A stretch of DNA of 64,000 bases, taken from Prorocentrum cordatum (Eukaryota). Made by a program: the position numbers and the translations under genes. Location: NCBI GenBank assembly GCA_963575745.1, contig CAUYUJ010000061.1, positions 1 through 64,000 of the forward strand, read 5' to 3'. Position 1 is the stretch's first letter; the number at the start of each line of letters is the position of its first letter. The notes under the pieces are model-generated. The model had not been told where the DNA came from. It saw only the letters and a program-made list of their open reading frames with translations, and did not search any database. Positions 679 to 64,000 of this stretch are shown here, in pieces.

Positions 679-708
679 CGCGCATCGGGCGATCGGCTGC
701 GGGAGTCT

Positions 709-17800: not shown

Positions 17801-17999
17801 AGGCGGCGCCGACCGAGTGGTGACAGGTTTCGGTTCAGAAAGGGTCGAGGACTTGGCTGCTTTCCAGCGCGGCCGCGCTCGGGCGGATGCGACGCGCGCG
17901 TCGCAGCGGGTGTCGGGGGGGACCCGGGGGTTGGCCGTGGACATGCAGGGGAATGAGCTGGATCGGTCGGCGGGGTCCGCCTGGCATTCGGGCCGATAG
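5836..17999 (+). CDS. Helentron RepHel polyprotein: Helitron N-terminal region, HUH Rep, PIF1-family SF1B helicase, AP/EEP endonuclease, USP/C19 peptidase
   Basis: AFPLEFPMGIGD; Rep motifs PSIWWTQN (~8256), ECGAGGNLHYHG (~8526-8561), YVTKYATK (9792-9815); Walker A GVAGTGKS (11382), APTG, DEMSM (~11721), GDPQQAPPI, LAWALTHWKAQGMTL (~12786); EN TWNI/LQE/GDMN/SDH (14580-15300); USP GHSCY, QQHD, GHY, FDD, AYMAVY (15705-16630). Confidence 0.92.
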
Positions 18000-18049
18000 G
18001 ACAGGGCTGGGCAAGGATTTTGGGTTTCGAAGAGGGAATGAAGGGGAGG

Positions 18050-18080
18050 AGTGTGTGTGTGTGTGTGTGTGCGTGCGTGC

Positions 18081-18120
<40 letters not shown>

Positions 18121-18449
18121 TGGGTGGGGTGGGGTGGAGGGGGGGGGGGGGATGGGATTGGATGGGGGGTGGGGTGGGGGTTGGGGGGGGGGCGAGGGAG
18201 GGCGGGGGGGGGGGGCGCTGAATGAAGCAAGGCTGTGCTGCGAGTTGCGACGGACTGGAGCGGAGGCATGGCTGGCCCCGTAGTGCGGCGGTCCCTCCCC
18301 CCTCTGGAGCGCTGGCGCGGAGAGGGGGGTGCGTTGGTTGGAAGGGCTGGATCTCCGCGCTGCGGCGCCGATCGAGTGGTGCATGGCAGTAGTCAGCGCG
18401 GAGATGGGGAGGAATGCGCTGAATCCAGCGGCGTTGCCCGTGTAATGTG

Positions 18450-18492
<43 letters not shown>

Positions 18493-18511
18493 GTCTGTGC
18501 GTGTTTGTGTG

Positions 18512-18549
<38 letters not shown>

Positions 18550-18614
18550 TGCGTGTGCGTGTGTGTGCGTGCGTGTGTGTGTGTGTGTGTGTGTGCGTGT
18601 GTCTGTGCGTGTTT

Positions 18615-18656
<42 letters not shown>

Positions 18657-18657
18657 G

Positions 18658-18700
<43 letters not shown>

Positions 18701-19105
18701 TCACGGCGCTGGCGCCGCCTGCGCCCCCCTCCCCTCCTCCCCCCCCCGCCCTTTCCTCCGGCGCTCCGCGAGGGCGGAGTGGTTGGAGTGGAGGGAGGGC
18801 CGGCCCCGAAATGGGGCGGTGCCTCCCCCCTCCGGAGCGCCGGCAGGGAGGGCGGGGGGGGGGGGGGGGCGCGCGGAGGCGGCAGAGGGTCGCGGGGGTG
18901 GAGAGCGCTGACCAGCGTGGGGATCGGTTTGTAAGGGCGACGTCATCAGTGTGTCCGTGTCCGTGGGTGTTGTGTGTGTCTGTGTGTGTCTGTGTGTGTT
19001 GTGCGTCTGGGAGGTGTGTGTGCTCGTGTGTGTGTGTGTGTGTGCGTGCCTGTGTCTGTCTTTGTCCGTGTGTGTATGTGTGTGTGTGTGTGTGTGCGTG
19101 CGTGC

Positions 19106-19141
<36 letters not shown>

Positions 19142-20191
19142 GTGTGTGTGTGTGTGTGTGCGTTTGTGTGCGTGTGTGTGTGTGTGTGTGCGCGTGCGTG
19201 TGTGTGTGTGTGTGTGTGTGCTCGTCTTTGTATGCGTTTATGTGCATGTGTGTGTGCGTGTGTGTATGCGTGCAAGTGTGATTATGTGTGTGTGCGCGCG
19301 CGTGTGTGTGTGTGTCTGCGTGTGTATGTGTGCGTGTGTGCATGTGTGTGCGTGTGTGTGTCTGCGTGTGTGTGTGTGTGCTTGTGCGCGTCTGTGTGTG
19401 TGTGTGTGCGTGTGTGTTTATGTTTGCGTGTGTGTGGATGTGCGTCTGTGCTTGTTTACGTGTGCGTGTATGCGCATGTGCTTGCGCGTGTGTGTGTGTG
19501 TGTGTGTGTCGGGTGCGTGTGCGTATGTGTGTGTGTGTGTGCGTGTGTGTGTGCGTGCGTGTGTGTGTGTGTGTGTGTGTGTGCGTGCGTGCGTGCGTGG
19601 GTGTGCGTGTGTATGTGTGCGTCTCTGTGCATGTGTGTGCGTGTGTGTGCGTGTGTGTGTGTGCGTGTGTGTATGTGTGTTTGTGCGCGTCTGTGTGTGT
19701 GTGTGTGTGTGCGGGTGTGTTTATGTTTGCGTGTATGTGCATGTGTGTGTGTGTGTGTGCGTGTTTACGTGTGCGTGTATGCGCATGTGCTTGCTTGCGT
19801 GTGTGTGTGTGTGTGTGTGTGTCGGTTGCGTGTGCGTGTGTGTGTGCGTGTGTGTGCGTGTGTGTGTGCGTGGGTGTGCGTGTGTGCGTGTGTGTGTGCG
19901 TGCGCGCACGGTGCTGGCGCCGCCTGCGCCCCCCTCCCCTCCTCCCCCTCCGCCCTTTCCTCCGGCGCTCCGCGAGGGCGGAGTGGACGGAGTGGAGGGA
20001 GGGCCGGCCCCGACATGGGGCGGTGCCTCCCCCCTCCGGAGCGACGGCGGGAAGAGCGGGGGGGCGGGGCGCGCAGGGGCGGCAGGGGGGTCGCGGGGGC
20101 GGAGAGCGCTAACCAGTGTGGGGATCGGTGTGTAAGTGCGACGTCGTCAGTGTGTCCGTGTCTGTGGATTGCGGGTGTGTGTGTGTGTGTG

Positions 20192-20813: not shown

Positions 20814-21020
20814 TGCTTGTTTTTTTTTGTGTGTGTGTGTGTGTTTGAGTGCGTGTGTGTGCGTGTGTGTGTGCGTGTGTGTGTGTGTGTGTGTGCGCGT
20901 GCGTGTGTGTGCATGTGTGTGCGTGAGGGGTGCCGGTGCGTGAGTGAGCGCGCGTGGTTGTGAGTGCGTGCGCGCGTGAGATTGTATTTATTCGCGTGCG
21001 CGCGTATGTGCGTGCGCGCG
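18050..21020 (+). repeat. Compound (TG)n/(TGCG)n microsatellite tract with three interspersed copies of a ~250-bp GC-rich unit
   Basis: Long TG runs; the GC unit recurs at ~18700-18960, ~19908-20165 and ~20355-20620. Confidence 0.95.
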
Positions 21021-21270
21021 CTCGTGCCCGGTGCGTTGCCGCGCCGGCTGACGTCGATCCTATTTTCGCATGCTTGTCCATCTGTACATGTCTACATACA
21101 GGTGCGCTGCCACGGAAGCATCGCTCTCGCGCGCTGGAAGACGCCTTGAAACTCATACATGTATGTGTTCATTCTATTATTGGAAATAAATTCACCGTGC
21201 GCATTCCAGAGATATGCATGGACTTATGACACGTGGCTAGGAGCTCTACGAGGTAGCCATTTTGGCTCAA

Positions 21271-21306
21271 GGAAGCTCTACGAGGTGTCCGGCGGTAACC
21301 TGGTTG
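21271..21306 (+). other. Helentron 3' subTIR, left hairpin arm and loop (LINE target; right arm displaced to 27051-27083)
   Basis: GGAAGCTCTACGAGGTGTCCGGCGGTAACCTGGTTG matches intact ends such as 44419-44476. Confidence 0.9.
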
Positions 21307-21698
21307 TGCAGAGCTTACCTCCTGCTCAGCCTGGCCTCACCGCTGGGGTCCCCTCGTCTCGAGCTGCATTGTGCAGTAGGGAGTCTTCGGTTCCACATAC
21401 TGTACACGGAAGGCGGAAGCGCGGGAATCGAAATCTGGCGGGGCATTCCTTCACAACGTGGTTCCACATACTGTACACGGTGCTTCAGAGCCTGTTTTGC
21501 CTGAGTACCGCGGGTGCACATATCAGATTGTTTCTCCGTATTGCTCCAGTGGTGGGGAACTCTCAATACTTTGGGATTGATTCTTGCCAGAGCTTGTCAG
21601 TTTTGCTCCCTGTGCACATTTCTGTGGACTCTGTCACACGTGTGTTCATTGAAGTTGGCCACAATATACAACTCCGTCGCACGAGTGCCCATTAGAGT

Positions 21699-22820
21699 AT
21701 GGCGCTTCCAGTGTCGGGCAGCCGGCGCAAGAGAGAAGACGACGGGGCTGAGGGCATGGACGCTGAGAATGTACTAGATGCTGATATCCACGGATTGGCT
21801 TTTGATGAACAGAATCCCATGAAGCAATTCTTCGAACTGGGAAAGCAGCAACTGCAGCAGCAAAGAATTACTGACCGCAAGGTGACAGGCATGGTTAACG
21901 ATATGGCTACCATGCAACGACGGCAGGATAGTGCTGAACGACGAATGGCTGAAGGCCAGGCTCAGATGGATAAACGAATGACAGATCTTGAGAAGCAGGT
22001 CTTAGAGCTCAAGTCGCATACTGCTGCAGGTTCTGGGGCATCCACTGGTGCTACTTCTGCTGGCTTTGGGGGTGAGGCGACTTGGCCAAACGAGAGCAGG
22101 CGTCCATTCCGAGCCTTCAATCCAGAGTGGATCGATTTTCGTGGATGGGTGATTGACTGGAGTAATCCGATTCGACGGTCAGAGCAAATGATTTCAGATC
22201 GGGACGTGGGCATTCTCATTCACAACTTGAAGATGAGCCTTCCAGAGGATGACCGTGCGAAGATTGACGAGCTTGGTACGCTTCGTATGAATGGGAATCG
22301 TCCCAACTACGCAAACTTCCGCATCAAGTTTACCACTGGTACTGAGTCAGACGTACTCTGGAGGTGCAAAAAGTTTTGGGAAGAAGCTCTGATACCGCCT
22401 GAGGATCGAACTGAGGAGCAAAGGTCTCTTGCCCGTCCGACACCACAGGATCTTTTCAAAGACATGGACAACAGACCGTGTGCGGCTGGAGGCTCCATTC
22501 GGATCAAGACACAGGCACCGCCATGGAAAGAGGACCACATCAATGCTGTTGGCAGATTCCATGGTGTGTGGCGCGATACGGTCGTTGCGAGGAATCCTGA
22601 TACGCCAATGAAGATCAAGGGAGTGCCTGGGAGTGGAAAGGGGGTCAGTGTGATGTGGACCATTCCCCCATGTCTCCGTACCAAAAGAAGCATGGAGCTG
22701 GCCAAGTGGAAACAGGATACGGGCACTTGGACTGTTGATCAGACGGTCTGGAACGAAGTTGTCATGACATACGGCATCGCCACGACCCACAAAGAAATGG
22801 AGGATGCACTCGGACAATGA
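21699..22820 (+). CDS. LINE ORF1 protein (coiled coil + unknown globular domain), 373 aa
   Basis: ATG start; heptad-like N-terminal segment; blocks shared with family 2 ORF1 (NPMKQxF, FxP..GW, PWKxxHxxAVGR). Confidence 0.85.
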   Translation: MALPVSGSRRKREDDGAEGMDAENVLDADIHGLAFDEQNPMKQFFELGKQQLQQQRITDRKVTGMVNDMATMQRRQDSAERRMAEGQAQMDKRMTDLEKQVLELKSHTAAGSGASTGATSAGFGGEATWPNESRRPFRAFNPEWIDFRGWVIDWSNPIRRSEQMISDRDVGILIHNLKMSLPEDDRAKIDELGTLRMNGNRPNYANFRIKFTTGTESDVLWRCKKFWEEALIPPEDRTEEQRSLARPTPQDLFKDMDNRPCAAGGSIRIKTQAPPWKEDHINAVGRFHGVWRDTVVARNPDTPMKIKGVPGSGKGVSVMWTIPPCLRTKRSMELAKWKQDTGTWTVDQTVWNEVVMTYGIATTHKEMEDALGQ

Positions 22821-22844
22821 GGGTGCTGCGAGAGATCCAAAAGC

Positions 22845-25800
22845 ATGGCTCTCGCTACTCTCGCGGCAGGCACACTCAATGTTGCGAGAGCTGGGCGGCT
22901 CGAGTCTCGGGCGTACGCTATTCTACGAGCACTACATGGGGTAGGCTTAAATGTTGTGGCTTTGCAAGAATGTCAAAACGTGGACTTCAATGACACCTTA
23001 ATTCAGCGTCTGGGGTGGGATGCTGCTTCAAAAAGTACTTGCATGCGGGCAGCGGTGCTTCTCAAACGTCGCCACCTGCCCCACATGATAGCCTCTTATC
23101 AAGCAGATCGGGTTGCGATGATTGTTCATCGATCGGGAGTTTGTTTCACTAGTGCTTACTTTGCTGATGCGTCTCATCCAGATGCTCCAGAGATATGCAG
23201 ACGGATACTGCATGATGTACGCCGCCTGCACCGACAGGCTCAGGCCAACCATGGCCATCACTTTCGCCTGTTGCTTGCCTGTGATGCCAATGTGGAGCTC
23301 ACGCCAGAGTTGGAGGTGGATGGGAGGAGGGTGACGGGACCAGGACTCAGAAGATCGAGGGAGAGGGGACTTGGTCGGAACGGTGCCATCGATTTGGAGG
23401 ACAGGAGGGCCAAGGAGGTGTGCATGAGGGACCAGATTGAGGAGTTCTTGGAGGAGGAGGAGCTGGCTGCGATCAACACTTTTGAAGCACGGGTGCCGAC
23501 CTACTGGCACTTCGGTGAGAGTGAGCCCACAAAGGTTTTAGATTACATCTTGGCGCCCAGGCAGTGGACAGTAGAAGATATCTCGTACAGTTGGTTGCAG
23601 GACGGGCGTGTGGCACGTTTGAGCGATCATGCAGTAATCAAAACCCTGTTGGCCCCAAGGGAACCCCAGCAGATGTACCGACACAAGGTTGTTCGGCCAC
23701 ACGTCACGGCACGCCGGGCATTCGAGTCCCACAGAGAGGAGTTCTGTTTCAGAGCGTTGGTGGACATTGGTATTGAGGCCACACGCCCTGACGAGATCGC
23801 GAAGTCGTTGCATCAGCATGCGTTGCCTCTGCTTAACCCGCCTTCCTCTGCGCATCGTGCACATGCTAAGTCTAAAGAGCTAGCAGATCTTCAGCATCAG
23901 TATCGTGGAGCCCGTGGGAATCCTGATGAGAGAAAGCGCCTGAGGGAACTTATGAGGCCCCTGGTCAAGGCAGATAGGCGTAGTGAGATCGAGTATACCT
24001 TCGCGAACTCCCGCAAAAGCAAGAAAGTGAATGTCAAGTCTCTGAAGATCGACGGGGAGATGACGGAGGATCGTAAGAGGTGGGTGGAGGAGGGGATGAA
24101 GCAGCACAGCTTGAACACGATGACGAGCGAGGAGGAGAGGATGAGGAACAGCGAGCTGGTATCTGACTTACGGCGACGTGCACGAGCAGCTAGGGCACAC
24201 AGCAGCAGCAGTACGATGCACGACATGCGCATGCAGCTCACGATGGGGGTGGTGAACGAAGCACGTGCACGATTGCGATCTGGCAAGAGCTGCGGCCCAG
24301 ATGGGGTCAGCGTGGAGCTCTTGAAGGCTTTGGCGTGGCGAGCTGTTCGCCAGATTTTCCATGTGTTTCGAGATATCTTTCAAGGTGATCGTCGGTCACC
24401 TGACTGCTGGAGAGAGGTACTCATCACGCTGATGCCCAAGCTGATGAATCTTGATTCGCTCACACAAACACGCAATCTAGTTGTACAGAACACGTTAGGA
24501 AAATGGTACCTCACCTGTGTTACTATCCTTATCGAGAGGCATGCTGAACAGTACATGGGGCGATTGGGCTTGTATGGTTTCGCACAGGATCGGAGGACGT
24601 GGGAAGTAGCGGGACCCCTTAAGGCCATCTCACAGCATGCGAGTGTTTGGGGGAAAGATAGAAAAGCGTTCTTCTGTTCATGTGATATAGCACGAGCCTT
24701 CGACCATGTTAAGCTCACTACTTTGGCACGCGCGATGCACATGCTTAACATACCTGTACAGCTACAATATGCTCTGATCGAGCCCTTAACTGACACGACG
24801 GGCACGCTCACGTTCGAGGGCCTGGAGTTAGGTGGGGTACGATGGGATCGATCTCTCAGAACGGGGGGTACCGAGTCTCCCCTGTGCTTTAATTTGGTTG
24901 TGTTGGCCATGTGGGCGGAGGTCATACAGAGGTGGGATAATGAACGTATAGGTGTGGAGATCCCGTACAGCAACATGCACGACATGACGCGCGCACATGT
25001 TTACAATCATGCGATTTGGGCAGATAATATATATCTCGTGGCCAGTACATCGGCTCAGATGCAGCTGATGATCAACACACTCACTCACGCTTTACGTACA
25101 TGGGGACTAGAGTGGAAGTCAGATTCACTTGAATCGATGGTGGTGGGCGACCGCGATACCACTACTTTCTTCGCTGATATCCAGGGGGTGCAGGTCCCGT
25201 TCAAGTCAGTCTCTCAGCTGAATGTGTTGGGAACGATCGTCTCGCAGCAGTATGGGGGCACGCACGAGGACATACAATTTCGGGTTGAGTGTGCACGGCG
25301 CGCGTTTTATGGGCAAGCTAAGTATTATCGTTGTCGTGCTCTCCCTCTTCGTAAGCGGTATCGTCGGTATCAGAGCCTGGTACAGAGTGTATTAGCATAC
25401 GGATTGGATACATGTACGCTGGACCCTGAAGGTGTTCGATTGCTGCATACCTTTGAGGGCAGATGCCTGCTGGCCATGCATTGTCGAAGGAAGCCTGCGG
25501 GACAGAGATGGGAGGTCTGGAAGCCACATATGCTTGACACAGCGAGGGCTTCTTTCTGCTCGCTGGGATTTCCTAGCATCGTCCAGATCGTGGCGTGGAA
25601 GAGTTGGAGCGTCGCGCATTCGGTAAGCACGGCCTACGGCAATTTTGACTTCACAAATCCTGGGCCTCCCCGGTGGACAGGCCCAGGTTCAGGAGTAAGT
25701 TGTGAGGATGGGGTCTCGAGCGGCTCTCAGCAAAATGATGGCGCTGACGGCCGACGTGTTGTACGCAAGATTGAGCCACATCCTGATACCACGAGACGTG

Positions 25801-26867
25801 CATTTGTTGATTCTCGCACGGCATTGCTTTGTACACACAAGACTTGGGAAGCGCACCGCATGGCTCTCACTGAATGTCTCCGCTGTCATGGAGATCGTAG
25901 GCGTGCCTCTGAAGGCAAACGGCTGCGCGCGGGAGGAGATAGTGTTGGGCAGCGGTCTTGGCAGTACCCGTACATACAGACTCATGGGGATGAGTGGTGG
26001 GAGACCTTCCGACCAGGATATGCCACATTTCTGCAGACATGGGAAGCACTTTTACGCACGTATGGTAGGCCTAAGATATTCGAGTACTTCTGCACGAATT
26101 GGAAACAGGTACCAGGAGGAGATGTTGGGAGAGAGTGTAAGGAGGGAACTGGAAGGAACGAGGAGGCGACGGAGGAGGAGAACATGAAACAAGCAAGACG
26201 GTTGGCGATTATTAATGAACGGGAAGCTGTATTTGATATCATGTCGAACGGAGTTGGAATTGAGATCAAGGGAGACTCTTTGTTGGTCCAGAGCTGGCTT
26301 ACGGGACGTTGGCGTTGTCATAATCGTGCATATCGTGAGCGTGTACACAGGTGTGTCAATGACATGTACGCGCTTAGCCTTTCACACCGAGCACGGGCAT
26401 CGAACGTTGGGAGAGACATATTTGTACATGAATTTCGTGAAGCAAACACCCGAGCAGACGAACTTACTCATTTGGCCAGGGATGGCCACACATTTCATCA
26501 TAACTATTGCCATCGATATCCTTTCGAACGAGATTCTTTGAAGGTAGTCGCCTGTCGTGGAGGGTACGACGGGGGAGTGTGCAGCAAGGGCAGTGCATGC
26601 GGTTACTGGATGCAGGTTGGCTATCTCAACATGTCCTCACGGGCGTCTCGGCATGGAGTGTGTTCTACACGATACTCCCCCTACCCGACCTCTTCCTCTC
26701 TACATTATCATGCTGACACACCGTTGATTTGGAGAGACGCTGCTGCTGCGGCCTGGCTGGAGCCAGGCGCCACGATCACCGAATGTGAGTTGTCCGCTGC
26801 CGAAGCATTGACACGTGCCATACGCATACAGCTACAGCAATTTGATGACAGTGATTTTGCTTCTTGA
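22845..26867 (+). CDS. LINE ORF2: AP endonuclease, reverse transcriptase (WADN), permuted RNase H
   Basis: GTLNV, LQE, DAN, LDY, SDH (APE); GPDG, DIARAFD, RTGGTESP, WADN (25017-25028), LG (RT); GDS...NTRAD...YDGG...ECEL (RNase H). Confidence 0.93.
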   Translation: MALATLAAGTLNVARAGRLESRAYAILRALHGVGLNVVALQECQNVDFNDTLIQRLGWDAASKSTCMRAAVLLKRRHLPHMIASYQADRVAMIVHRSGVCFTSAYFADASHPDAPEICRRILHDVRRLHRQAQANHGHHFRLLLACDANVELTPELEVDGRRVTGPGLRRSRERGLGRNGAIDLEDRRAKEVCMRDQIEEFLEEEELAAINTFEARVPTYWHFGESEPTKVLDYILAPRQWTVEDISYSWLQDGRVARLSDHAVIKTLLAPREPQQMYRHKVVRPHVTARRAFESHREEFCFRALVDIGIEATRPDEIAKSLHQHALPLLNPPSSAHRAHAKSKELADLQHQYRGARGNPDERKRLRELMRPLVKADRRSEIEYTFANSRKSKKVNVKSLKIDGEMTEDRKRWVEEGMKQHSLNTMTSEEERMRNSELVSDLRRRARAARAHSSSSTMHDMRMQLTMGVVNEARARLRSGKSCGPDGVSVELLKALAWRAVRQIFHVFRDIFQGDRRSPDCWREVLITLMPKLMNLDSLTQTRNLVVQNTLGKWYLTCVTILIERHAEQYMGRLGLYGFAQDRRTWEVAGPLKAISQHASVWGKDRKAFFCSCDIARAFDHVKLTTLARAMHMLNIPVQLQYALIEPLTDTTGTLTFEGLELGGVRWDRSLRTGGTESPLCFNLVVLAMWAEVIQRWDNERIGVEIPYSNMHDMTRAHVYNHAIWADNIYLVASTSAQMQLMINTLTHALRTWGLEWKSDSLESMVVGDRDTTTFFADIQGVQVPFKSVSQLNVLGTIVSQQYGGTHEDIQFRVECARRAFYGQAKYYRCRALPLRKRYRRYQSLVQSVLAYGLDTCTLDPEGVRLLHTFEGRCLLAMHCRRKPAGQRWEVWKPHMLDTARASFCSLGFPSIVQIVAWKSWSVAHSVSTAYGNFDFTNPGPPRWTGPGSGVSCEDGVSSGSQQNDGADGRRVVRKIEPHPDTTRRAFVDSRTALLCTHKTWEAHRMALTECLRCHGDRRRASEGKRLRAGGDSVGQRSWQYPYIQTHGDEWWETFRPGYATFLQTWEALLRTYGRPKIFEYFCTNWKQVPGGDVGRECKEGTGRNEEATEEENMKQARRLAIINEREAVFDIMSNGVGIEIKGDSLLVQSWLTGRWRCHNRAYRERVHRCVNDMYALSLSHRARASNVGRDIFVHEFREANTRADELTHLARDGHTFHHNYCHRYPFERDSLKVVACRGGYDGGVCSKGSACGYWMQVGYLNMSSRASRHGVCSTRYSPYPTSSSLHYHADTPLIWRDAAAAAWLEPGATITECELSAAEALTRAIRIQLQQFDDSDFAS

Positions 26868-27300
26868 TGATGTGTTATCCCTACGCCCTCCTGGGCTCGG
26901 GAATCGTCTTCAAGTTTAGCAATGTTATATGACACCTCAGCCCGCCTCCGTGGGTAGGTGCTCGTTTCACTGCTGCTCAGTTGCCAGGCTGCGTAGCTGA
27001 CACGGGCTGCGCTGAAGACCAGCGCCTCGCCAGCCCGCGTAAACACAAAAAACCAGGTTGACGGTTTACCGCCGGCGCCCAGTAATTCCGGGGAGCTGGA
27101 GAGCTAGTTGGCAACGAAAATCTCGACGGACCTTTTGCTGACTTTTGGTCGGTTGAAAATTTTGTTCGCGAAATTTGACCATTCGTTAGAGCTCTAGTAT
27201 TTTTCCCATGATATTCGATCTTATTCCCGCTCGCCATCTTGATCTCAGCTCGATCGGGTAACTTTGAAGGCCAAAAAGCAGGGGGGCGGGAACGGCCGTT

Positions 27301-28012
27301 TCGAGTCATCTTGATATGCGCTGACGGTTTTCTGAACATAACTCGAGCTCTAGGGCAGCTACAGAGCTGGTAAGCACAGCTAACTCATGCAGAATGATCA
27401 GGCGCGTTCGCCTGTTCAACCCAGAGGTCTGAACTCGGTCTGTCAGCTGAGCTAGGTTCGCAAACCTGTTTGTATTATTCGAGTCAACTTGACACGCGTT
27501 GTAGATATTTTCTACTTAACTCGAGCTATAGGGCAGCTACAGTGCCGGTGAGCACCCCTCTCGCTCTCAGAATGATCAGACGCGTTCGCCTGTTGAGTCC
27601 ATAGGTCTAAACTCGGTCTGCTAGCCGAGCTAGGTACGCAAACCTATTCGTATTATTCGAGTCAACTTGATACACGTTGTCGGTATTTTCCTCTTAACTC
27701 GAGCTGTAGGGCAGCTACCGCGCTGGTAAGCACCCCTATCGCACTCAGAATGATCAGACGCGTTCGCCTGTTGAATCCATAGGTCTAAACTTGGTCTGCT
27801 AGCCGAGCTAGGTGCGCAAACCTATTCGTATTATTCGAGTGAACTTGCTACGCGTTGTCGGTATTTTCCACTTAACTCGAGCTGTAGGGCAGCTACCGTG
27901 CTGGTAAGCACACCTACCGCACTCAGAATCATCAGGCGCGTTCGCCTGTTGAATCCAGAGGTCTGAACTCGGTCTGCTAGCCGATCGAGAATCACGAAAC
28001 TGTTCGTATTCT
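27301..28012 (+). repeat. 178-bp tandem repeat inside a type-A non-autonomous element (example; recurs through 27-62 kb)
   Basis: TCGAGT(C/G)A(T/A)CTTG recurs at 27301, 27479, 27657 and 27835 (period 178). Confidence 0.9.
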
Positions 28013-34937: not shown

Positions 34938-36014
34938 ATGTCTCAGCAACACCCAGCAGGTGCGCCCTGTTGTAAGAAGAGTAAGGCTGTGGGTGAGGAT
35001 GAGGATATGATTCAGGCAAGCAGTGTGGAGGAGGAGCAGTTCGGCGAATTTGATGACGGCAATCCTATGAAGCAACAGTTTGCTATGATGAAGGCTATGC
35101 TAGCTAAACAGAACACTCAGAAGAAAAGAATTTCACGGATTGAGCAGGATGTGAAACGGATCGACCAGCGTGGTGAGAAAAATGAGGCTGACATTGCTGC
35201 TATGCAGCAGCAGATCCGCTCGCTTCAGCAGAAGGGTCCACCCAGTGATGCAGGATCAGGGTCCACGGATGCTTGGAGTAACTATGCGGGCCCTGCGGGC
35301 TCCTCTGCTACGGCCACTGCTCCCAGGTATGGTAATCGTACGCCAATTCGCGAATGGAATCGAGTGCGGGAGGATTTTACACCGACCTTCAACCAACTCA
35401 CAGGTTGGGCGCGAGGTGGAGTCGGCAATCTCAAGACTCGTTCATCGGATATGCTCTCCTGGGATCATGCCCTGCCTGTCATTCGTAAATTTGTCCGTGG
35501 CACAGGAAAGATGACTGAGGAGCATTTCGACATGAGTAGGATCGAGCGGGAGCACAAAAATAAACCATATGGTCTTTATCGTATACGATTCTATGTTATA
35601 AGTGGCAAGTTGACGAACGATGAAATTTGGGAGATACGCAACTCTTGGGCCGTCGAGCTTGAGAATGACACGCACGACTTGAAGCAAGTCACTCCCATCC
35701 TGGCCAACAAGCGTCTCGGCGTATCCTGTGAACCAGCACCCTGGAAGCAGCCACATGTTTCTGCCGTGGGTCGTTGTCAAGCTATCTTTGCTACTCTCAG
35801 GAGTGGATCCCAGTGGCTGAAGGGTGAGATGGGTCCTCCTGTCAGCTATGTGTGGGGCTACCCTTCGGCCACGACGCCGAAGACGGATGGAGTATGCATT
35901 GCCGTGTTTGATCCTAACTTGGGGTGGAAGGTTGACGCCGAGCTGCTGCGTAAGGTCGATGACAAGTTGGATTGCGAGGTCTTTCTGGCCAAGCTCAACT
36001 TTCGTACCTGGTGA
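34938..36014 (+). CDS. LINE family 2 ORF1 protein, ~358 aa
   Basis: First in-frame ATG at 34938; coiled coil; APWKQPHVSAVGR aligns with family 1 PPWKEDHINAVGR. Confidence 0.85.
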   Translation: MSQQHPAGAPCCKKSKAVGEDEDMIQASSVEEEQFGEFDDGNPMKQQFAMMKAMLAKQNTQKKRISRIEQDVKRIDQRGEKNEADIAAMQQQIRSLQQKGPPSDAGSGSTDAWSNYAGPAGSSATATAPRYGNRTPIREWNRVREDFTPTFNQLTGWARGGVGNLKTRSSDMLSWDHALPVIRKFVRGTGKMTEEHFDMSRIEREHKNKPYGLYRIRFYVISGKLTNDEIWEIRNSWAVELENDTHDLKQVTPILANKRLGVSCEPAPWKQPHVSAVGRCQAIFATLRSGSQWLKGEMGPPVSYVWGYPSATTPKTDGVCIAVFDPNLGWKVDAELLRKVDDKLDCEVFLAKLNFRTW

Positions 36015-39000
36015 AGGTGCCATGGCGCCATCGTGGGCACGTATAACGTGAGGCGCTGTGGCAGCATGAACAGCCACGACATGCTTGCTCAGATCAAGAC
36101 CTCGAATTCGGAAGTTCTCGCTTTGCAGGAGTGCCAGTTCCTTGGAATAGGTAGGTGCTCTGAGCATGGTTTCACCTTAACTCTTTCTAATGATGGGAAG
36201 GCCGGGGTTCTCTACAAGAGGGTGTGGAGAGCCTCCATACGTGAATGCATCAGGGGTAATCGTTATGTCATTCTCGTGTTTCAATCGTTGATTGTTGCCA
36301 GCTTGTACTTACCACATGCGCCGAAAAAAGGGGATCACAATATCTTATTCACACAAACATTGCAGTCGTTTCGAAAGGATTTGGATACGCTCCGAGTTAG
36401 GTTTCCCAAGGAAGGGTGGGACTTGTTCATCGGGATGGATGCTAACGTTGAGCTTCTGCCTCACACGGTATTTGGAGATGTTGCTTTGACTGGTTCTGCA
36501 GTGCAGGGTGAGAGATTTGAAGAAGGGGACAATGCAGGAGGAGGTGGACGTGGAGGTTTCCAGCAGGGTAGGAGGAGGATGCAACAATACATGTGTGACG
36601 AGCTCTGTGAATGTATGTGGCATTATGATTTGGTTTTCTCGATTTCTTTTGGGACCCGTCGTACGACCTGGAAGGCCAGGGAGGAGACGGAGGAGGAGGA
36701 CAAGGTTCTTGATTACCTGTGTATTCCGAGCTCCTGGGAAAGGCCTCAGTGGGAGGTGTCGTGGTTAAGGCCAACACTCAGGGGCTCTGTGGACCCCAGA
36801 AAGACCCGCCTGTCGGACCATGCCCTGCTCACCTTGCTTGTCCCCGAATCGGCCGCTCCGACTCGACGTTGGAGAACGAAGCCACGACAAACGTTCACTC
36901 ATTGGTGCTGCGACGAAGCCTCGGAATTGCAAGTTTCGGCTAACCTTGATCGTCGTTTGCATGCTGCAGCTCGTTACCCATCTGGTCTCTGCCCGGATGA
37001 ATTGGCTCCTGTTATCTTGAATGCATGTACACAGGACAAGGAGTCATACACCAATGTCCCAAAGAAAATGCAGATCCCCAAAAAGACAGATCGTCATAAG
37101 GAACTTGATGATGAATATCGCCGACTGCGTCGTGAAGGAGGGGAGGAGGAGGAGCTCATCAGGGTTAAGAAAGAGAGAAGGAAGGAGATGCGTGCACACA
37201 CTCGTCGTCGACTCGAATACGATCATCGTGACGGGAAGCTCGCTCGGACGGTGGTGGACAAATTGAGTTATGACGATGTGCTCACGGAGGATAGGGAGTT
37301 GTGGGAGAAGGCGCTCTATGCTCACGGGTTCGCCAAGTACCACTGTGCTGCGCAAGGGATACGTAACGTGGAGTGTATCGAGGAGAGGAGGAGGAGGAGG
37401 TTGCAGGACACGAACACAGTGGACGTCTCCCCCATTTCCATGTCCGTATTGTTACAGGCACGATCACGCTTAAAGTGTGGTAAGGCGGTGGGTAAGGACG
37501 GAGTTTCTCCTTCTATGTTGAAACGTATCACGTGGGTAGGTTTGCGTCATATTCTTCGGTTATTCCAAGACCTGTATCTTCAACGGTATCCTACTCCTCG
37601 GATTTGGTCTGAGTTGCTTGTGGTGTTGATGCCGAAAGCTAAAGATATCACTAAGTTGTCTGATACTCGTGCTCTCGTCTTACTTAGCAGCCTAAGCAAA
37701 TGGTATACTTCATGTTTGGTTGAGATTGCTGAAGGTTATCTGAAAAGGGTCCCACAATATCTACATAACTACGGATTTTGCAAGGGAAGGCGCACGCACG
37801 AGATCACTGCCATGCTTAAGCATGCCACCACACACGCTCTGGAGTGGGGGAAAGATGAGACCCTGCACCTCGCGTCATTAGATGTGCAGACTGCCTTTGA
37901 TAACGTCACGGTTGAGAAGGCCAGTCGGGCCTTGGATGCCATCCCTGGGTTCCCCAATGACCTTGCGTTGGCGCTACTCGCTCCCAGTATCCTGGACACA
38001 GCGGACTTTACCTTTCAGGACTCCACGGCGACGGGTATTCCCTGGGATGCATGTGTACGTACTGGTAGTGTGGAGGCCCCCTTCCTGTGGAAGTGTGTGA
38101 CACTACTGATGTGGGATAGGATTGTACTGAATTGGGAGGAGGAGAAGTTGGGGTACGATTTGGGGGTGGAGGCTGGTGGGAGGTATCTTACTCATGCGCT
38201 CTGGGCCGATAACATTTTGCTTTTCTCGAAATCAAAGACTGAGCTCACACGTATGGTGGGGGACTTCTCGGCTCAGCTGTATACGCACGGTTTCAGATGG
38301 AAAGATTCCTCACTACACTATCTTGCCTTTGGGGAGGACTCTGAAGGCGCCTCGACGGGGAACCTCGTTGTCCAGGTGAACGATCTCGGTACCCTGTGTC
38401 TTCCGCGATGCTCTGAAATGGAGTGCCTGGGTTGCCTGGTCACGACCAAGACTGACAAACACCATGATGTGGCTTGGAAATTGGCTCGGGGTTGGAAGCG
38501 ATTTAACCAGTTCCGCAAGTTTTATACGAATCGTGCTGTACCCTTCCAGAAGAAAATCAAGCATTATGAATCTAGGTTGCGTAGTTTTGTACTTTTCGGT
38601 GTTGAAGGCATGCCAGCGGACCACCACACTTTGAAACAGTTGCACACGTGGGAAGGTAAAATATTGTGTTCTATGGTACGCCGCCCGAAACCTGCCGACA
38701 TGGATTGGAGTATATACTTATGCAACTTGTACAAACGTGGGCGGCGTATGCTCCTGGAATTGGGACGGCCGTCTCTTGTGCAGCTATTCTTGTTTCGTCA
38801 GTGGCAGTGGGCTCAGGACTGTACGTTTACTGTGAAACGCCTGAACCCAACACCCGCACAGATTCCTCCAGGTACTTTTGATTCTTCAGGCAAGCCTGGC
38901 CCCAACGTCTTTGCTGCGTGTGAGCCACCGCCGGCCAAGAGACAACGTCAGGATGAACCCATGTATGTGCTACCAAGTATTGCGTGCTCGACATCAATGG

Positions 39001-40193
39001 GATGTCATCCTGACGTGTGTGAGACGATGCATGCTGTTGATTCCTTTGAGCTCCCTGGTTCTCAGACACAATTACCCGCGCATCGGCGCAATCTGATTTC
39101 CCAGATGCATAAGCGTGCAAAGACATTCCATCCATCTCAGGATTCTCTGTCGCAAAAGCGTTCCTCTGTTGAGTTGCCGTCGCAGGAAATCGCTGCAAAC
39201 AAGCGGCGACGGGTGGCTCCACCTCAGCATCGTAGTACAGGGGACTCGCATATGCAGGCTAGAGAATGTATTTTTGCATGGTCGGGGGAGTGGACTGACC
39301 GACGGCAGGCCTTCATTGCATCGCTGCCTTGGAAAGAACGCCCATTAATGACGCGTCGGCATGAGGGGGGGAGACCACTGGCGTTGAGAAACTTCCATTA
39401 CATTTTCGAGTTGGTATCAGGGAAGGATTGGTATCACACGTTATCCTTTTCACGTCAGGGATGGAAAGAATTTCTGAAGCGGGCACTGGATGTTACTAAC
39501 ATGGAGGAGGCGTGGGGGTACTGTTACTTTAAACATGCACAACCTGCGGGATATGCTAGGGAGGAGGAGGAGAGGGAGAAGACGGAGGAGCAGCAAAGGA
39601 AGGAGGACGAGAAGATGGAGAAACGACTTGCGTACATTAATGAACATGCATCGGAGTGGAATGCGGAGCCTCGGGACTCGATACCGATGGAATTGATTGG
39701 GGACTCCGCCACAGGGGTGAATTGGATTAACGGTCTCTGGGCAACATCCAATATTATCTACAAGCACATTCTTGGCGACATTCAAAATAGGCTGGAGCAT
39801 ATCTCTGTGTTGTATGGTATGAGGCCTCCGAGTTGGGGCCACAATATGTTCAAGTGGATCTATCGAAAAGGAAACGAAAGAGCTGACAGGCTGACATGGT
39901 TGGCCAGAACCAAAAATAGTTACGTTACGTTCCATACCTCACTTATTGAACATGCGAGTAAAACAAAACTAGACGGCCTCCGTGGATTCTTCGACGGAGG
40001 TCGCTCTGTGGAGGGATGTGCTGCAGGATGGTGTATAGATTTGTGTGTACACGGGACGTGGCAGTTGGTGGCGGAGGAAGCTGTCTCGCTTGATGCCTCT
40101 GCTTCTGTCATGTTTTGTGAGATGATTGCAGCACAACGGCTCTGTATGGCCGTGGAGCACATTTTGGGTAGCATCTTTCATCCAAGCAGCTGA
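36015..40193 (+). CDS. LINE family 2 ORF2: APE, RT (WADN), permuted RNase H; no ATG before the first APE motif
   Basis: GTYNV, LQE, DAN, LDY, SDH; GKDG, DVQTAFD, RTGSVEAP, WADN (38202-38213); GDS (39699), NERAD, FDGG, CEM. Confidence 0.92.
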   Translation, partial: RCHGAIVGTYNVRRCGSMNSHDMLAQIKTSNSEVLALQECQFLGIGRCSEHGFTLTLSNDGKAGVLYKRVWRASIRECIRGNRYVILVFQSLIVASLYLPHAPKKGDHNILFTQTLQSFRKDLDTLRVRFPKEGWDLFIGMDANVELLPHTVFGDVALTGSAVQGERFEEGDNAGGGGRGGFQQGRRRMQQYMCDELCECMWHYDLVFSISFGTRRTTWKAREETEEEDKVLDYLCIPSSWERPQWEVSWLRPTLRGSVDPRKTRLSDHALLTLLVPESAAPTRRWRTKPRQTFTHWCCDEASELQVSANLDRRLHAAARYPSGLCPDELAPVILNACTQDKESYTNVPKKMQIPKKTDRHKELDDEYRRLRREGGEEEELIRVKKERRKEMRAHTRRRLEYDHRDGKLARTVVDKLSYDDVLTEDRELWEKALYAHGFAKYHCAAQGIRNVECIEERRRRRLQDTNTVDVSPISMSVLLQARSRLKCGKAVGKDGVSPSMLKRITWVGLRHILRLFQDLYLQRYPTPRIWSELLVVLMPKAKDITKLSDTRALVLLSSLSKWYTSCLVEIAEGYLKRVPQYLHNYGFCKGRRTHEITAMLKHATTHALEWGKDETLHLASLDVQTAFDNVTVEKASRALDAIPGFPNDLALALLAPSILDTADFTFQDSTATGIPWDACVRTGSVEAPFLWKCVTLLMWDRIVLNWEEEKLGYDLGVEAGGRYLTHALWADNILLFSKSKTELTRMVGDFSAQLYTHGFRWKDSSLHYLAFGEDSEGASTGNLVVQVNDLGTLCLPRCSEMECLGCLVTTKTDKHHDVAWKLARGWKRFNQFRKFYTNRAVPFQKKIKHYESRLRSFVLFGVEGMPADHHTLKQLHTWEGKILCSMVRRPKPADMDWSIYLCNLYKRGRRMLLELGRPSLVQLFLFRQWQWAQDCTFTVKRLNPTPAQIPPGTFDSSGKPGPNVFAACEPPPAKRQRQDEPMYVLPSIACSTSMGCHPDVCETMHAVDSFELPGSQTQLPAHRRNLISQMHKRAKTFHPSQDSLSQKRSSVELPSQEIAANKRRRVAPPQHRSTGDSHMQARECIFAWSGEWTDRRQAFIASLPWKERPLMTRRHEGGRPLALRNFHYIFELVSGKDWYHTLSFSRQGWKEFLKRALDVTNMEEAWGYCYFKHAQPAGYAREEEEREKTEEQQRKEDEKMEKRLAYINEHASEWNAEPRDSIPMELIGDSATGVNWINGLWATSNIIYKHILGDIQNRLEHISVLYGMRPPSWGHNMFKWIYRKGNERADRLTWLARTKNSYVTFHTSLIEHASKTKLDGLRGFFDGGRSVEGCAAGWCIDLCVHGTWQLVAEEAVSLDASASVMFCEMIAAQRLCMAVEHILGSIFHPSS

Positions 40194-62671: not shown

Positions 62672-63793
62672 ATGGCGCTTCCAATGTCGGGCAGCCGTCG
62701 CAAGAGGGAAGACGAGGGGGCTGATGACATGGACGCTGAGAATCAACTAGATGCTGATATCCACGAATTGGCTTTCGACGAAAAGAATCCCATGCAACAA
62801 TTCTTCAACATGGGGAAAGCGCAACTGCAGCAGCAAAGAATTACTGACCGCAAGGTGACAGGCATGGTTAATGATATGGCTACCATGCAACGGCGGCAGG
62901 ACAGTGCTGAACGACGAATGGCTGAAGGCCAGGCTCAGATGGATCAACGAATGACAGATCTTGAGAAGCAGGTTTTGGAGCTCAAGTCTCATTCTGCTGC
63001 AGGTTCTGGGGTATCCACGGGTGCTACTTCTGGTGGCTTTGGGGGTGAGGCGACTTGGCCAAACGAGGCCAGGCGTCCATTCCGAGCCTTCAATCCAGAG
63101 TGGATCGATTTTCGTGGATGGGTGGTCGACTGGAAGAATCCGATTCGACGGTCAGAACAAATGATTTCAGATCGTGACGTTGGCATTCTCATTCACAACT
63201 TGAAGATGAGCCTCCCAGAGGATGACCGTGCAAAGATTGATGAGCTTGGCACGCTTCGTATGAATGGGAATCGTCCTAACTTCGCAGACTTCCGCATCAA
63301 GTTTACCACTGGTACTGAGTCAGACGTGCTCTGGAGGTGCAAAAAGTTTTGGGATGAAGCTCTGATCCCGCCTGAGGATCGAACTGAGGAGCAAAGGTCT
63401 CGAGCCCGTCCGACGCCACAGGACCTTTTCAAAGACATGGACAACAGACCGTGTGCGGCTGGAGGCTCCATTCGGATCAAGACACAGGCACCGCCATGGA
63501 AAGAAGACCACATCAATGCTGTTGGCAGATTCCATGGTGTTTGGCGCGATACGGTCATTGCGAAGAATCCTGAAACGACAATGAAGATTAAGGGAGTCCC
63601 TGGGAGTGGAAAGGGGGTCAGTGTGATGTGGACCATTCCCCCATGTCTCCGTACCAAAAGAAGCATGGAGCTGGCCAAGTGGAAACAGGATACGGGCACT
63701 TGGACTGTTGATCAGACGGTCTGGAACGAAGTTGTCATGACATACGGCATCGCCACGACCCATAAGGAAATGGAGGATGCACTCGGACAATGA
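62672..63793 (+). CDS. LINE family 1 ORF1, copy B (373 aa)
   Basis: Colinear with 21699..22820; many differences are synonymous. Confidence 0.87.
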   Translation: MALPMSGSRRKREDEGADDMDAENQLDADIHELAFDEKNPMQQFFNMGKAQLQQQRITDRKVTGMVNDMATMQRRQDSAERRMAEGQAQMDQRMTDLEKQVLELKSHSAAGSGVSTGATSGGFGGEATWPNEARRPFRAFNPEWIDFRGWVVDWKNPIRRSEQMISDRDVGILIHNLKMSLPEDDRAKIDELGTLRMNGNRPNFADFRIKFTTGTESDVLWRCKKFWDEALIPPEDRTEEQRSRARPTPQDLFKDMDNRPCAAGGSIRIKTQAPPWKEDHINAVGRFHGVWRDTVIAKNPETTMKIKGVPGSGKGVSVMWTIPPCLRTKRSMELAKWKQDTGTWTVDQTVWNEVVMTYGIATTHKEMEDALGQ

Positions 63794-63817
63794 GGGTGCT
63801 GCGAGAGATCCAGAAGC

Positions 63818-64000
63818 ATGGCTCTCGCTACTCTCGCGGCAGGCACACTCAATGTTGCGAGAGCTGGGCGGCTCGAGTCTCGGGCATACGCTATTCTACG
63901 AGCACTACATGGGGTAGGCTTAAATGTTGTGGCTTTGCAAGAATGTCAAAACGTTGACTTCAATGACACCTTAATTCAGCGTCTGGGGTGGGATGCTGTT
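63818..64000 (+). CDS. LINE family 1 ORF2 N-terminus (APE), partial
   Basis: Begins MALATLAAGTLNV...LQECQN as in copy A. Confidence 0.87.
   Translation, partial: MALATLAAGTLNVARAGRLESRAYAILRALHGVGLNVVALQECQNVDFNDTLIQRLGWDAV

What the first reader, a model, noticed from the sequence alone, without database searches (positions are those of the whole stretch)
22818..22868. ORF1 and ORF2 in frame behind a conserved UGA-RGG-UGC and stem-loop: candidate programmed readthrough
Seen: in all three LINEs ORF2 is in the ORF1 frame and separated from it by one TGA (22818, 36012, 63791), followed by GGG TGC or AGG TGC. In family 1 an 11-bp stem starts 3 nt after the stop (TGCTGCGAGAG 22824-22834 / CTCTCGCGGCA 22858-22868, one G-U pair). 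Known: 3' stem-loops stimulate stop-codon readthrough in viruses, and gag-pol readthrough occurs in some retroviruses and LTR elements but is not the usual LINE mechanism. Inference: a ~1,720-aa ORF1-ORF2 fusion made at low frequency. Family 1 also has an in-frame ATG at 22845, so reinitiation remains possible.
Basis: partly seen in the sequence, partly recalled or inferred. Interest (0 to 1): 0.8.

Follow-up and report, generated by a model that had tools for sequence, protein, structure and literature searches.

The report
Stop-anchored hairpin between LINE genes
Two very distant jumping-gene (LINE) families in this dinoflagellate DNA keep their two genes in one reading frame, split by a single UGA stop that is followed at once by the same short motif and a strong RNA hairpin, which looks like a signal letting ribosomes carry on into the second gene.

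Summary
All three LINE copies (two families, 24-26% protein identity) have ORF1 and ORF2 in one frame, split by one TGA followed by RGG-TGC.

It is 12 bp (17 bp with an inner extension) and starts at the same offset, 3 nt after the stop. All 11 shared stem positions pair in both families, 5 of them through changes on both sides. In family 2 this is the most stable 52-nt window of the whole element.

The hairpin keeps its distance from the stop, but its place in the protein differs by 9 codons between families. In family 2 the endonuclease's first strand and active-site Asn lie before the first in-frame AUG.

Best reading: a stop-linked recoding signal. UGA readthrough giving an ORF1-ORF2 fusion is about 0.45; termination-coupled reinitiation, as in SART1 and human L1, is about 0.33. 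The 3-nt spacer and the purine after UGA do not match known readthrough stimulators, which have 6-9 nt spacers.

No related DNA from elsewhere could be fetched.

The parts
21699..22820 (+). Family 1 copy A, ORF1 (373 codons plus TGA)
   Evidence: dN/dS 0.23 against copy B
22818..22826 (+). Family 1 copy A: UGA stop plus conserved GGG-UGC
22824..22834 (+). Family 1 copy A: 5' arm of the 11-bp stem, starting 3 nt after the stop
22858..22868 (+). Family 1 copy A: 3' arm of the 11-bp stem; it can pair instead with 22880-22890
22846..22855 (+). Family 1 copy A: loop segment complementary to 22884-22893 (10 bp) and, over 22849-55, to 22828-34. It allows a tandem-hairpin fold or an H-type pseudoknot
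22880..22893 (+). Family 1 copy A: downstream segment that repeats the 5' arm and pairs with 22858-68 or 22846-55
22845..22847 (+). Family 1 copy A: first in-frame AUG after the stop (9th codon), inside the hairpin loop and 8 codons before the GTLNV strand
22821..26870 (+). Family 1 copy A: ORF2 frame from the codon after the UGA (endonuclease, reverse transcriptase, C-terminal part), ending in TGA TGA
34938..36014 (+). Family 2: ORF1 from its first ATG (the frame is open from 34878) to TGA
36012..36020 (+). Family 2: UGA stop plus conserved AGG-UGC
36018..36063 (+). Family 2: hairpin, 12-bp stem 36018-29 / 36052-63 plus inner 5 bp 36031-35 / 36047-51. It is the most stable 52-nt window of the element
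36030..36047 (+). Family 2: codons 6-11 after the stop (I V G T Y N), which form the first beta-strand and the conserved Asn of the endonuclease
36066..36068 (+). Family 2: first in-frame AUG (codon 18 after the stop), 2 nt after the hairpin and downstream of strand 1 and the Asn
36015..40193 (+). Family 2: ORF2 frame from the codon after the UGA, ending in TGA
62672..63793 (+). Family 1 copy B: ORF1 (93% identical to copy A in protein)
63791..63841 (+). Family 1 copy B: UGA, GGG-UGC and the same stem (63797-63807 / 63831-63841). The one difference from copy A lies in the loop
63794..64000 (+). Family 1 copy B: start of the ORF2 frame, cut by the end of the window

Best explanation
This is a translational recoding signal of a dinoflagellate LINE clade. 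It consists of the ORF1 stop (UGA), the conserved next six bases (RGG-UGC) and a stable hairpin whose foot begins 3 nt after the stop. I propose that a small share of ribosomes decode the UGA with a near-cognate tRNA instead of terminating, and continue in the same frame into the endonuclease/reverse-transcriptase gene. The product would be an ORF1-ORF2 fusion of about 1,720-1,770 residues, in the way retroviruses make Gag-Pol. Most ribosomes would stop and make ORF1 protein alone.

Shown here: the anatomy, its anchoring to the stop, and its conservation through compensatory changes across two very distant families.

Inferred: that the stop is read through, the role of the hairpin in this, and the existence of a fusion protein.
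For: 1. Same frame and a single stop in 3 of 3 copies, representing 2 of 2 families that share only 24% (ORF1) and 26% (ORF2) protein identity.
2. The stop sits at nearly the same place in ORF1: 26 and 25 residues after a shared W-x-V-D.
3. The six bases after the stop are 5 of 6 identical between families, although the protein around them cannot be aligned. TGARGGTGC occurs only at these three stops in the window.
4. A stem of 11 or 12 bp starts at offset +6 in both families, against a background of about 5.6e-4 such stems per nt. All 11 shared positions are paired in both: 3 unchanged, 3 changed on one side, 5 changed on both sides.
5. The window just after the stop is the best-folding 52-nt window of family 2 (-27.6 kcal/mol; the same hairpin holds ranks 1-2 of 5264; element mean -9.9, sd 4.2). 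In family 1 it is among the best (80-nt window rank 5 of 5089, one of two clusters). Nothing comparable follows the ORF2 stops (-15.3 and -4.4).
6. The hairpin is fixed relative to the stop, not the protein. The conserved Asn is codon 20 after the stop in family 1 and codon 11 in family 2. The length difference between stop and endonuclease is 27 nt, a multiple of three.
7. In family 2 the endonuclease fold starts at codon 6 after the stop. The model has pLDDT 80.5 with strand 1 at residues 6-11, and its best matches are AP endonucleases and L1 endonuclease at E 1e-10 to 6e-12. The Asn aligns with L1-EN Asn14, an active-site residue (passages of PMC8565326). The first in-frame AUG is codon 18.
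8. Both family 1 copies come from lineages under purifying selection (ORF1 dN/dS 0.23) and both keep the TGA.
Against: - The spacer is 3 nt. Documented stimulatory stems and pseudoknots lie 6-9 nt from the stop, and shortening by one codon impairs them. With UGA in the A site, much of an 11-bp stem would already be unwound (inference from the 11-12 nt channel length quoted).
- The base after UGA is G or A, not the C of the UGA-CUA and UGA-CGG readthrough contexts named in the papers read.
- Family 1 has an in-frame AUG 24 nt after the stop. A 42%-identical relative (P0008) begins with Met at the same aligned place, as expected for a real start codon.
- In family 2, near-cognate codons AUC and GUG (codons 6, 7) could serve as starts.
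- In a longer context, family 1 folds into a different pair of hairpins.
- No fused ORF1-ORF2 protein without a stop was found. The 'longer' search found none, and 0 of the 2 long relatives carries an ORF1 part.
- Only two independent families were examined here, and the shared phase may simply be inherited.
- No expression, ribosome or protein data were available.
Confidence: 0.45

Rival explanations
1. Termination-coupled reinitiation. Ribosomes terminate at the UGA and release ORF1 protein. The hairpin just downstream holds the small subunit (or the whole ribosome) in place. Translation then restarts a few codons on: at AUG 22845 in family 1, and at a non-AUG codon (AUC 36030 or GUG 36033) or without any start codon in family 2. 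ORF2 protein is made separately, as shown for SART1 and proposed for human L1.
For: - LINE precedent: SART1 couples ORF2 to ORF1 at UAAUG and needs a downstream RNA structure, and human L1 uses an unconventional termination-reinitiation (passages of PMC5972666; whole text of PMC3894237).
- A structure 3 nt from the stop fits a post-termination role better than the 8-nt rule for readthrough.
- Family 1 has an AUG in the hairpin loop, and the called Met of a 42%-identical relative aligns with it.
- Candidate near-cognate starts lie at the 5' end of the family 2 hairpin loop.
Against: - Reinitiation does not need the same frame, yet both families here are in phase, and the stop-to-endonuclease distance differs by a multiple of three. 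Four more copies are reported in phase by e1-7693723 (not checked here).
- There is no overlapping stop-start in the ORF2 frame. The AUGA (family 1) and GUGA (family 2) overlaps open frames that end after 58 and 11 codons.
- A start at GUG 36033 would leave only four residues before the Asn.
- Reinitiation after a 373-codon ORF is generally inefficient (argued in PMC3894237).
Confidence: 0.33
2. The hairpin has a role that is not translational, for example a binding or packaging site for ORF1 protein or a site for the reverse transcriptase. On this view the shared frame and single stop are inherited from a common ancestor without function.
For: - Only two independent families were examined.
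- Shuffle-based z-scores of the local folds are modest, -2.0 to -3.1.
- Family 1's preferred fold changes with context.
- The whole region from 22626 to 23024 is unusually conserved between the two family 1 copies: 5 differences in 399 nt against 65 in the 1119 nt of ORF1. This could reflect a broader RNA element or a recombinant history.
Against: - The stem starts at the identical offset from the stop in both families, although its position in the protein differs by 9 codons.
- The six bases between the stop and the stem body are conserved.
- The missing AUG in family 2 still needs a translational explanation.
Confidence: 0.1
3. A separate ORF2 messenger. The conserved AG just after the stop (UGAG|G, UGAAG|G) would be a spliced-leader trans-splice acceptor, or the structured region an internal ribosome entry site, so that ORF2 is translated from its own 5' end.
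For: - An AG follows the stop in both families.
- Sequences resembling the 3' part of the dinoflagellate spliced leader lie upstream of the elements, one directly abutting the shared 5' block of family 2. This suggests that these LINE RNAs are trans-spliced at their 5' ends. The leader sequence itself is recalled, not taken from a call.
Against: - It explains neither the common frame nor the hairpin's offset.
- In family 2 the first AUG of such an RNA would be out of frame (36022) and stops after 9 codons (read from the bases); the next one (36066) truncates the endonuclease.
- The contigs laid showed no joints, but they were DNA or of unknown kind, so they cannot test this.
Confidence: 0.07
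4. The stop is removed at the RNA level, by editing UGA to a sense codon, or it is decoded as selenocysteine.
For: In the 63-nt fold of family 1 the UGA can be drawn into an extended helix (UGAG with CUCA). A hairpin near a UGA also recalls selenocysteine redefinition elements (SEPN1, 6-nt spacer; passage of PMC3159437).
Against: - No SECIS or any other Rfam family was found at E up to 1 in 21000-41000.
- The UGA is unpaired in family 2.
- No RNA data were examined.
Confidence: 0.03

Closest known systems
Gammaretrovirus (MuLV) gag-pol readthrough signal
   Same: The upstream structural gene and the downstream polymerase gene are in one frame with a single stop. A purine follows the stop, and an RNA structure lies just downstream. 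The expected outcome is a small share of fusion protein (passages of PMC3159437).
   Different: MuLV uses UAG and a compact pseudoknot 8 nt after the stop. Here the stop is UGA and a hairpin starts 3 nt after it; family 1 could form a pseudoknot, but this is not shown. The element is a LINE, not a retrovirus.
Alphavirus, tobravirus/furovirus and Drosophila hdc/kelch type 3' stems that stimulate UGA readthrough
   Same: UGA followed by a stem of 10-14 bp that is supported by compensatory changes between relatives (passages of PMC3159437).
   Different: Those stems have spacers of 7-9 nt and loops of about 100-270 nt, mostly with UGA-C. Here the spacer is 3 nt, the loop is 22-23 nt and the context is UGA-R.
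SART1 (silkworm LINE) UAAUG translational coupling
   Same: It is a LINE in which ORF2 translation depends on the ORF1 stop and on an RNA structure just downstream of it (PMC5972666 passages; PMC3894237).
   Different: SART1 has an overlapping stop-start, UAAUG. Here there is no AUG overlapping the stop in the ORF2 frame, family 2 has no early AUG at all, and the two ORFs are in phase.
Human LINE-1 unconventional termination-reinitiation
   Same: A bicistronic LINE RNA in which ORF2 is made at low level after ORF1 translation (PMC5972666 passage).
   Different: L1 has a 63-nt spacer between the ORFs. Here the endonuclease fold begins 6 codons after the stop in family 2.
Plant LINEs of Arabidopsis reported with in-frame ORFs split by an amber codon (recalled only; not found in the held library)
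   Same: If my recollection is right, they are LINEs with ORF1 and ORF2 in phase and one stop, for which suppression was suggested.
   Different: I recall no conserved downstream hairpin or conserved stop context for them. Nothing was checked here, so this is a lead, not a comparison.

Membership tests
Programmed stop-codon readthrough signal with a 3' stimulatory structure | Downstream ORF in the same frame, with one stop and no further stop before the functional domain | tested here: met
   3 of 3 copies, 2 of 2 families
Programmed stop-codon readthrough signal with a 3' stimulatory structure | Stable RNA structure downstream of the stop, kept by compensatory changes | tested here: met
   11 of 11 positions paired in both families, 5 with changes on both sides; best or near-best fold of each element
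Programmed stop-codon readthrough signal with a 3' stimulatory structure | Spacer of about 6-9 nt between stop and structure | tested here: not met
   3 nt in both families. Only the alternative family 1 fold gives 7 nt.
Programmed stop-codon readthrough signal with a 3' stimulatory structure | Known leaky context (UGA-C, UGA-CUA/CGG, UAG-CAA-UUA) | tested here: not met
   The context is UGA-GGG-UGC or UGA-AGG-UGC. It is conserved but is not one of the listed contexts
Programmed stop-codon readthrough signal with a 3' stimulatory structure | Downstream domain lacks its own start codon | tested here: inconclusive
   Family 2 has no AUG before strand 1 and the Asn. Family 1 has an AUG at 22845
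Programmed stop-codon readthrough signal with a 3' stimulatory structure | Fusion protein made at a set low ratio | not testable with these tools
   No protein or ribosome data
Termination-reinitiation (SART1 / stop-start type) | Stop and restart codons overlap or abut in the downstream frame | tested here: not met
   The AUGA and GUGA overlaps are out of the ORF2 frame and end after 58 and 11 codons. The nearest in-frame AUG is 24 nt away (family 1) or 51 nt away (family 2)
Termination-reinitiation (SART1 / stop-start type) | RNA structure close to the stop is needed for restart | tested here: inconclusive
   The structure is present. Whether it is needed could not be tested
APE-type LINE with two ORFs | ORF2 with an AP-endonuclease fold followed by reverse transcriptase | tested here: met
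   RVT_1 at E 1e-10 and 2e-9. The AlphaFold model has the AP-endonuclease fold. Profile against L1 endonuclease gives E 0.008
APE-type LINE with two ORFs | Upstream ORF1 of a known type (coiled coil, RRM, zinc knuckle) | tested here: inconclusive
   No Pfam family, no usable Atlas hit, no fold made
Selenocysteine recoding | SECIS element | tested here: not met
   0 Rfam matches at E up to 1 in 21000-41000

The most novel reading that the evidence does not exclude
A whole clade of dinoflagellate LINEs makes its polymerase as an ORF1-ORF2 fusion by reading through a UGA. The signal would be of a new kind: UGA-RGG-UGC with a hairpin only 3 nt from the stop. This would be the first non-LTR retrotransposon with a Gag-Pol-type strategy, and a readthrough stimulator that breaks the 8-nt spacer rule.
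Probability: 0.4. Interest if true: 0.8.

Novelty: new variant of a known kind. Interest (0 to 1): 0.62.

Why it matters
How LINEs translate their second gene is still an open question. The only worked examples are SART1 and mammalian L1, and a review of LINE protein biogenesis read in full lists stop-start coupling, reinitiation, IRES and 2A but not readthrough (PMC3894237).

A compact signal of about 50 nt, conserved by compensatory change in families that share a quarter of their residues, gives a direct handle for experiments. Frame-shift and stem mutants in a reporter would tell readthrough from reinitiation.

If it is readthrough, it adds a recoding signal with unusual geometry and shows that LINEs and retroviruses converged on the same way of setting the ratio of structural protein to polymerase. 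If it is reinitiation, it is a second, independent LINE case of a downstream structure coupling ORF2 to the ORF1 stop, here without an AUG.

Tried and rejected
**Fetching related DNA.** All attempts failed.
- Metagenome contigs, 2 of 2 scans: 194 and 146 pattern matches, 0 confirmed.
- Viral contigs, 3 scans: 39, 62 and 37 pattern matches, 0 confirmed.
- Genome contigs, 1 scan: 31 pattern matches, 0 confirmed.
- No whole genome is held for this window.
- So frame and hairpin could not be checked in further families.

**Protein searches.**
- Family 1 ORF2 residues 1-500 in the word-indexed library: no hit.
- ORF1 against longer proteins, looking for fused forms: none, which the tool itself calls weak evidence.
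- The exhaustive search with the first 450 residues after the stop gave only 22 hits.
- I looked at the 11 of these 22 that I fetched, chosen because their match reaches the N-terminal part of the query. P0004, P0008 and P0010 have a Met upstream of strand 1. P0006, P0009, P0019 and P0021 have called starts inside or after it. The other four (P0011, P0012, P0015, P0017) do not reach that region.
- These are gene-caller starts without DNA, so they are only a hint.

**Reads.** Contigs of 4 runs were laid on 22250-23450 at 80% likeness.
- There is no variant row between 22638 and 22912.
- Contigs of X1 and X4 cover the stop and stem unchanged.
- The copies are near-identical, and X10 and X12 do not cover the stop, so the test has no power.
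- No run on record as RNA was laid (the kind of X4 is unknown).

**Other checks.**
- Rfam: nothing.
- Overlapping AUGA/GUGA starts: dead-end frames.
- 'UGA as the leaky stop': rejected as an argument, because both ORF2s also end in TGA.
- Atlas look-up of ORF1: no usable hit.
- Look-ups of this scan's notes by sequence: nothing.

**Literature.** Searches for a described LINE with in-frame ORFs and readthrough and for dinoflagellate LINE organisation found no such description in the held library. Most subscription papers are not held. Kojima et al. 2005 on SART1 could not be read.


Full report
**What is there**

The window is eukaryotic repeat-rich DNA. Earlier notes of this scan call the genome a dinoflagellate.

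It holds three LINE copies of two families.
- Family 1, copy A: ORF1 21699-22820, ORF2 to 26867.
- Family 1, copy B: ORF1 62672-63793, ORF2 cut by the window end.
- Family 2: ORF1 to 36014, ORF2 to 40193.

tblastn of the four proteins against the window finds only these three copies. The two families are 24% identical in ORF1 and 26% in ORF2. ORF2 carries a reverse-transcriptase domain (RVT_1, E 1e-10 and 2e-9) and a weak Exo_endo_phos match.

**The observation**

In all three copies ORF1 and ORF2 share one frame and are split by a single TGA, at 22818, 36012 and 63791. The stop is followed by GGG TGC (family 1) or AGG TGC (family 2). TGARGGTGC occurs three times in the 64 kb on both strands, all at these stops. 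Shuffles give 1.45 matches anywhere, and 15 of 100 shuffles reach three, so the count alone is not significant; the placement is.

Family 2 has a stronger hairpin at the same place.
- The stem is 36018-29 / 36052-63, 12 bp, extended by 5 more pairs after a one-base bulge. It starts 3 nt after the stop.
- With the stems set in register from the stop, all 11 shared positions are paired in both families. Three are unchanged (the U-A, G-C, C-G foot), three are changed on one side and five on both sides.
- Loops are 23 and 22 nt.

Such stems are rare. Stems of 11 bp or more (at most two G-U, loop 3-40 nt) number 3 in each 5.2-kb element and 36 on the + strand of the window, about 5.6e-4 per nt.

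Sliding-window folding points the same way.
- Family 2: the 52-nt window after the stop has -27.6 kcal/mol against an element mean of -9.9 (sd 4.2). The two best of 5264 windows are this hairpin.
- Family 1: -21.0 against -10.5 (sd 3.8), rank 45 of 5117 in five clusters. With 80-nt windows it ranks 5 of 5089, in two clusters.
- Family 2 with 80-nt windows ranks only 125 of 5236, so that structure is compact.

The windows after the ORF2 stops fold to only -15.3 and -4.4. Dinucleotide-shuffle z-scores of the local folds are modest, -2.0 to -3.1.

**Anchoring**

The ORF1 stop lies 26 and 25 residues after a shared W-x-V-D. The conserved endonuclease Asn is codon 20 after the stop in family 1 and codon 11 in family 2.

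So the hairpin keeps its distance from the stop while its position in the protein moves by 9 codons. In family 1 it precedes the GTLNV strand; in family 2 it spans GTYNVRRCG. This is the main reason to tie the structure to the stop codon and hence to translation.

**Family 2 has no usable AUG**

- An AlphaFold model of the 300 residues after the stop has pLDDT 80.5 and pTM 0.83. It puts the first strand at residues 6-11 and the first Met (residue 18) in the following helix.
- Its best structural matches are AP endonucleases, APE1, exonuclease III and L1 endonuclease, at E 6e-12 to 1e-9.
- A profile of 16 relatives matches L1 endonuclease (E 0.008-0.02). The family's Asn falls on L1-EN Asn14 and its LQE on Glu43. 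Passages of PMC8565326 place both residues in the active site.
- A start at AUG 36066 would therefore delete strand 1 and an active-site residue.
- Translation must enter within about five codons of the stop, either by reading through or by starting at a non-AUG codon (AUC 36030, GUG 36033).

Family 1 does have an AUG, 8 codons before its strand. P0008, a 42%-identical relative, starts with Met at the same aligned place.

**Ambiguity in family 1**

Four segments are mutually complementary: 22824-34, 22846-55, 22858-68 and 22880-93. Three folds are possible.
- Two tandem hairpins, which are the minimum-energy fold in 123- and 146-nt contexts. Their first stem starts 7 nt after the stop.
- An H-type pseudoknot (22824-34:22858-68 plus 22846-55:22884-93). 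This is my inference from the pairings; no pseudoknot energy was computed.

The family 2 hairpin persists in context.

**Mechanism**

The features fit stop-codon bypass. They are phase, a single stop, a conserved post-stop hexamer, a stop-anchored structure and a missing AUG.

I rate readthrough to an ORF1-ORF2 fusion as the most likely, at 0.45, mainly because phase is kept and the stop-to-endonuclease length differs by 27 nt.

Against it:
- Known stimulators sit 6-9 nt from the stop: MuLV 8, alphaviruses 8-9, furoviruses 7, hdc 8, SEPN1 6 (passages of PMC3159437).
- A recent review states that spacers are eight or more and that shortening by a codon severely impairs readthrough, with 11-12 nt downstream of the A site inside the channel (passages of PMC13517186).
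- With a 3-nt spacer the ribosome meets the hairpin two to three codons before the stop and has opened much of it when UGA is decoded (inference).
- The base after UGA is a purine.

The main rival (0.33) is termination-coupled reinitiation, for which LINEs give the only experimental precedents. One of them, SART1, needs a downstream structure. The overlapping AUGA and GUGA at the stops are not routes to ORF2.

Minor rivals:
- a non-translational role for the hairpin;
- a spliced-leader acceptor at the conserved AG, or an internal entry site;
- RNA editing or selenocysteine decoding (no SECIS).

**Limits**

- No DNA of further families could be fetched.
- The only run data were near-identical contigs.
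- The two family 1 copies differ at 65 of 1119 ORF1 positions (dN/dS 0.23), but at only 5 of 399 positions from 22626 to 23024, and one of those is in the hairpin loop. This is suggestive of constraint. It is equally explained by a recombinant history.
- The in-frame stop was already noted by this scan on other DNA of the same genome (e1-7693723: four distant copies). I could not see those sequences.

**Novelty**

In the held library I found no description of a LINE using readthrough, or of this signal. The review of LINE protein biogenesis, read in full, does not list readthrough. I recall that Arabidopsis LINEs with an in-frame amber codon were described around 1996-2000, but I could not find or read those papers.

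I file this as a new variant of a known kind.

Noticed in passing
window 5670-17996 (+), within the 62-75% G+C region 1-20000: A 4109-codon open frame carries DUF6570, a PIF1-like helicase, an Exo_endo_phos endonuclease and a UCH ubiquitin-hydrolase domain (composition). It looks like a giant Helitron/Helentron-type transposase gene. That family label is my recollection.
   Followed up: partly
window 21364-21511, 62404-62488 and 34510-34585: The 5' untranslated regions of families 1 and 2 share a block of about 76 nt at roughly 90% identity, although their proteins are only about 25% identical. Copy A of family 1 has a 71-nt internal duplication inside the block. This suggests a conserved promoter or leader module, or exchange between families.
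   Followed up: partly
window 21253-21271 and 34502-34509: Upstream of family 1 copy A lies GTAGCCATTTTGGCTCAAG. Directly abutting the shared 5' block of family 2 lies GGCTCAAG. Both resemble the 3' part of the dinoflagellate spliced leader as I recall it. They may be relics of trans-spliced LINE RNA copied back into DNA.
   Followed up: no
window 21289-21305 with 27051-27075; 27081-27214 with 40564-40700: Family 1 copy A is flanked by inverted sequences (CCGGCGGTAACCTGGTT ... AACCAGGTT GACGGTT TACCGCCGG). Both families are followed by the same repeat of about 135 nt.
   Followed up: partly
window 26865-26870: The family 1 ORF2 ends in a tandem stop, TGA TGA. The family 2 ORF2 ends in a single TGA followed by C.
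   Followed up: no
window 21699-23024 against 62672-63997: Divergence between the two family 1 copies falls from 9-12 differences per 100 nt at the start of ORF1 to 0-2 per 100 nt around the ORF1/ORF2 junction. There are none at all in 22626-22789.
   Followed up: partly
window 22519-22566 and 35813-35872: Each ORF1 holds another perfect stem (10 bp and 14 bp), 299 and 199 nt before the stop, at different places in the protein. This may be chance.
   Followed up: no
window 51151-52137 and 55322-56368 (+): Two open frames of 328 and 348 codons give the same weak, sub-threshold Pfam match at corresponding positions, so they look like two copies of one repeat unit.
   Followed up: no
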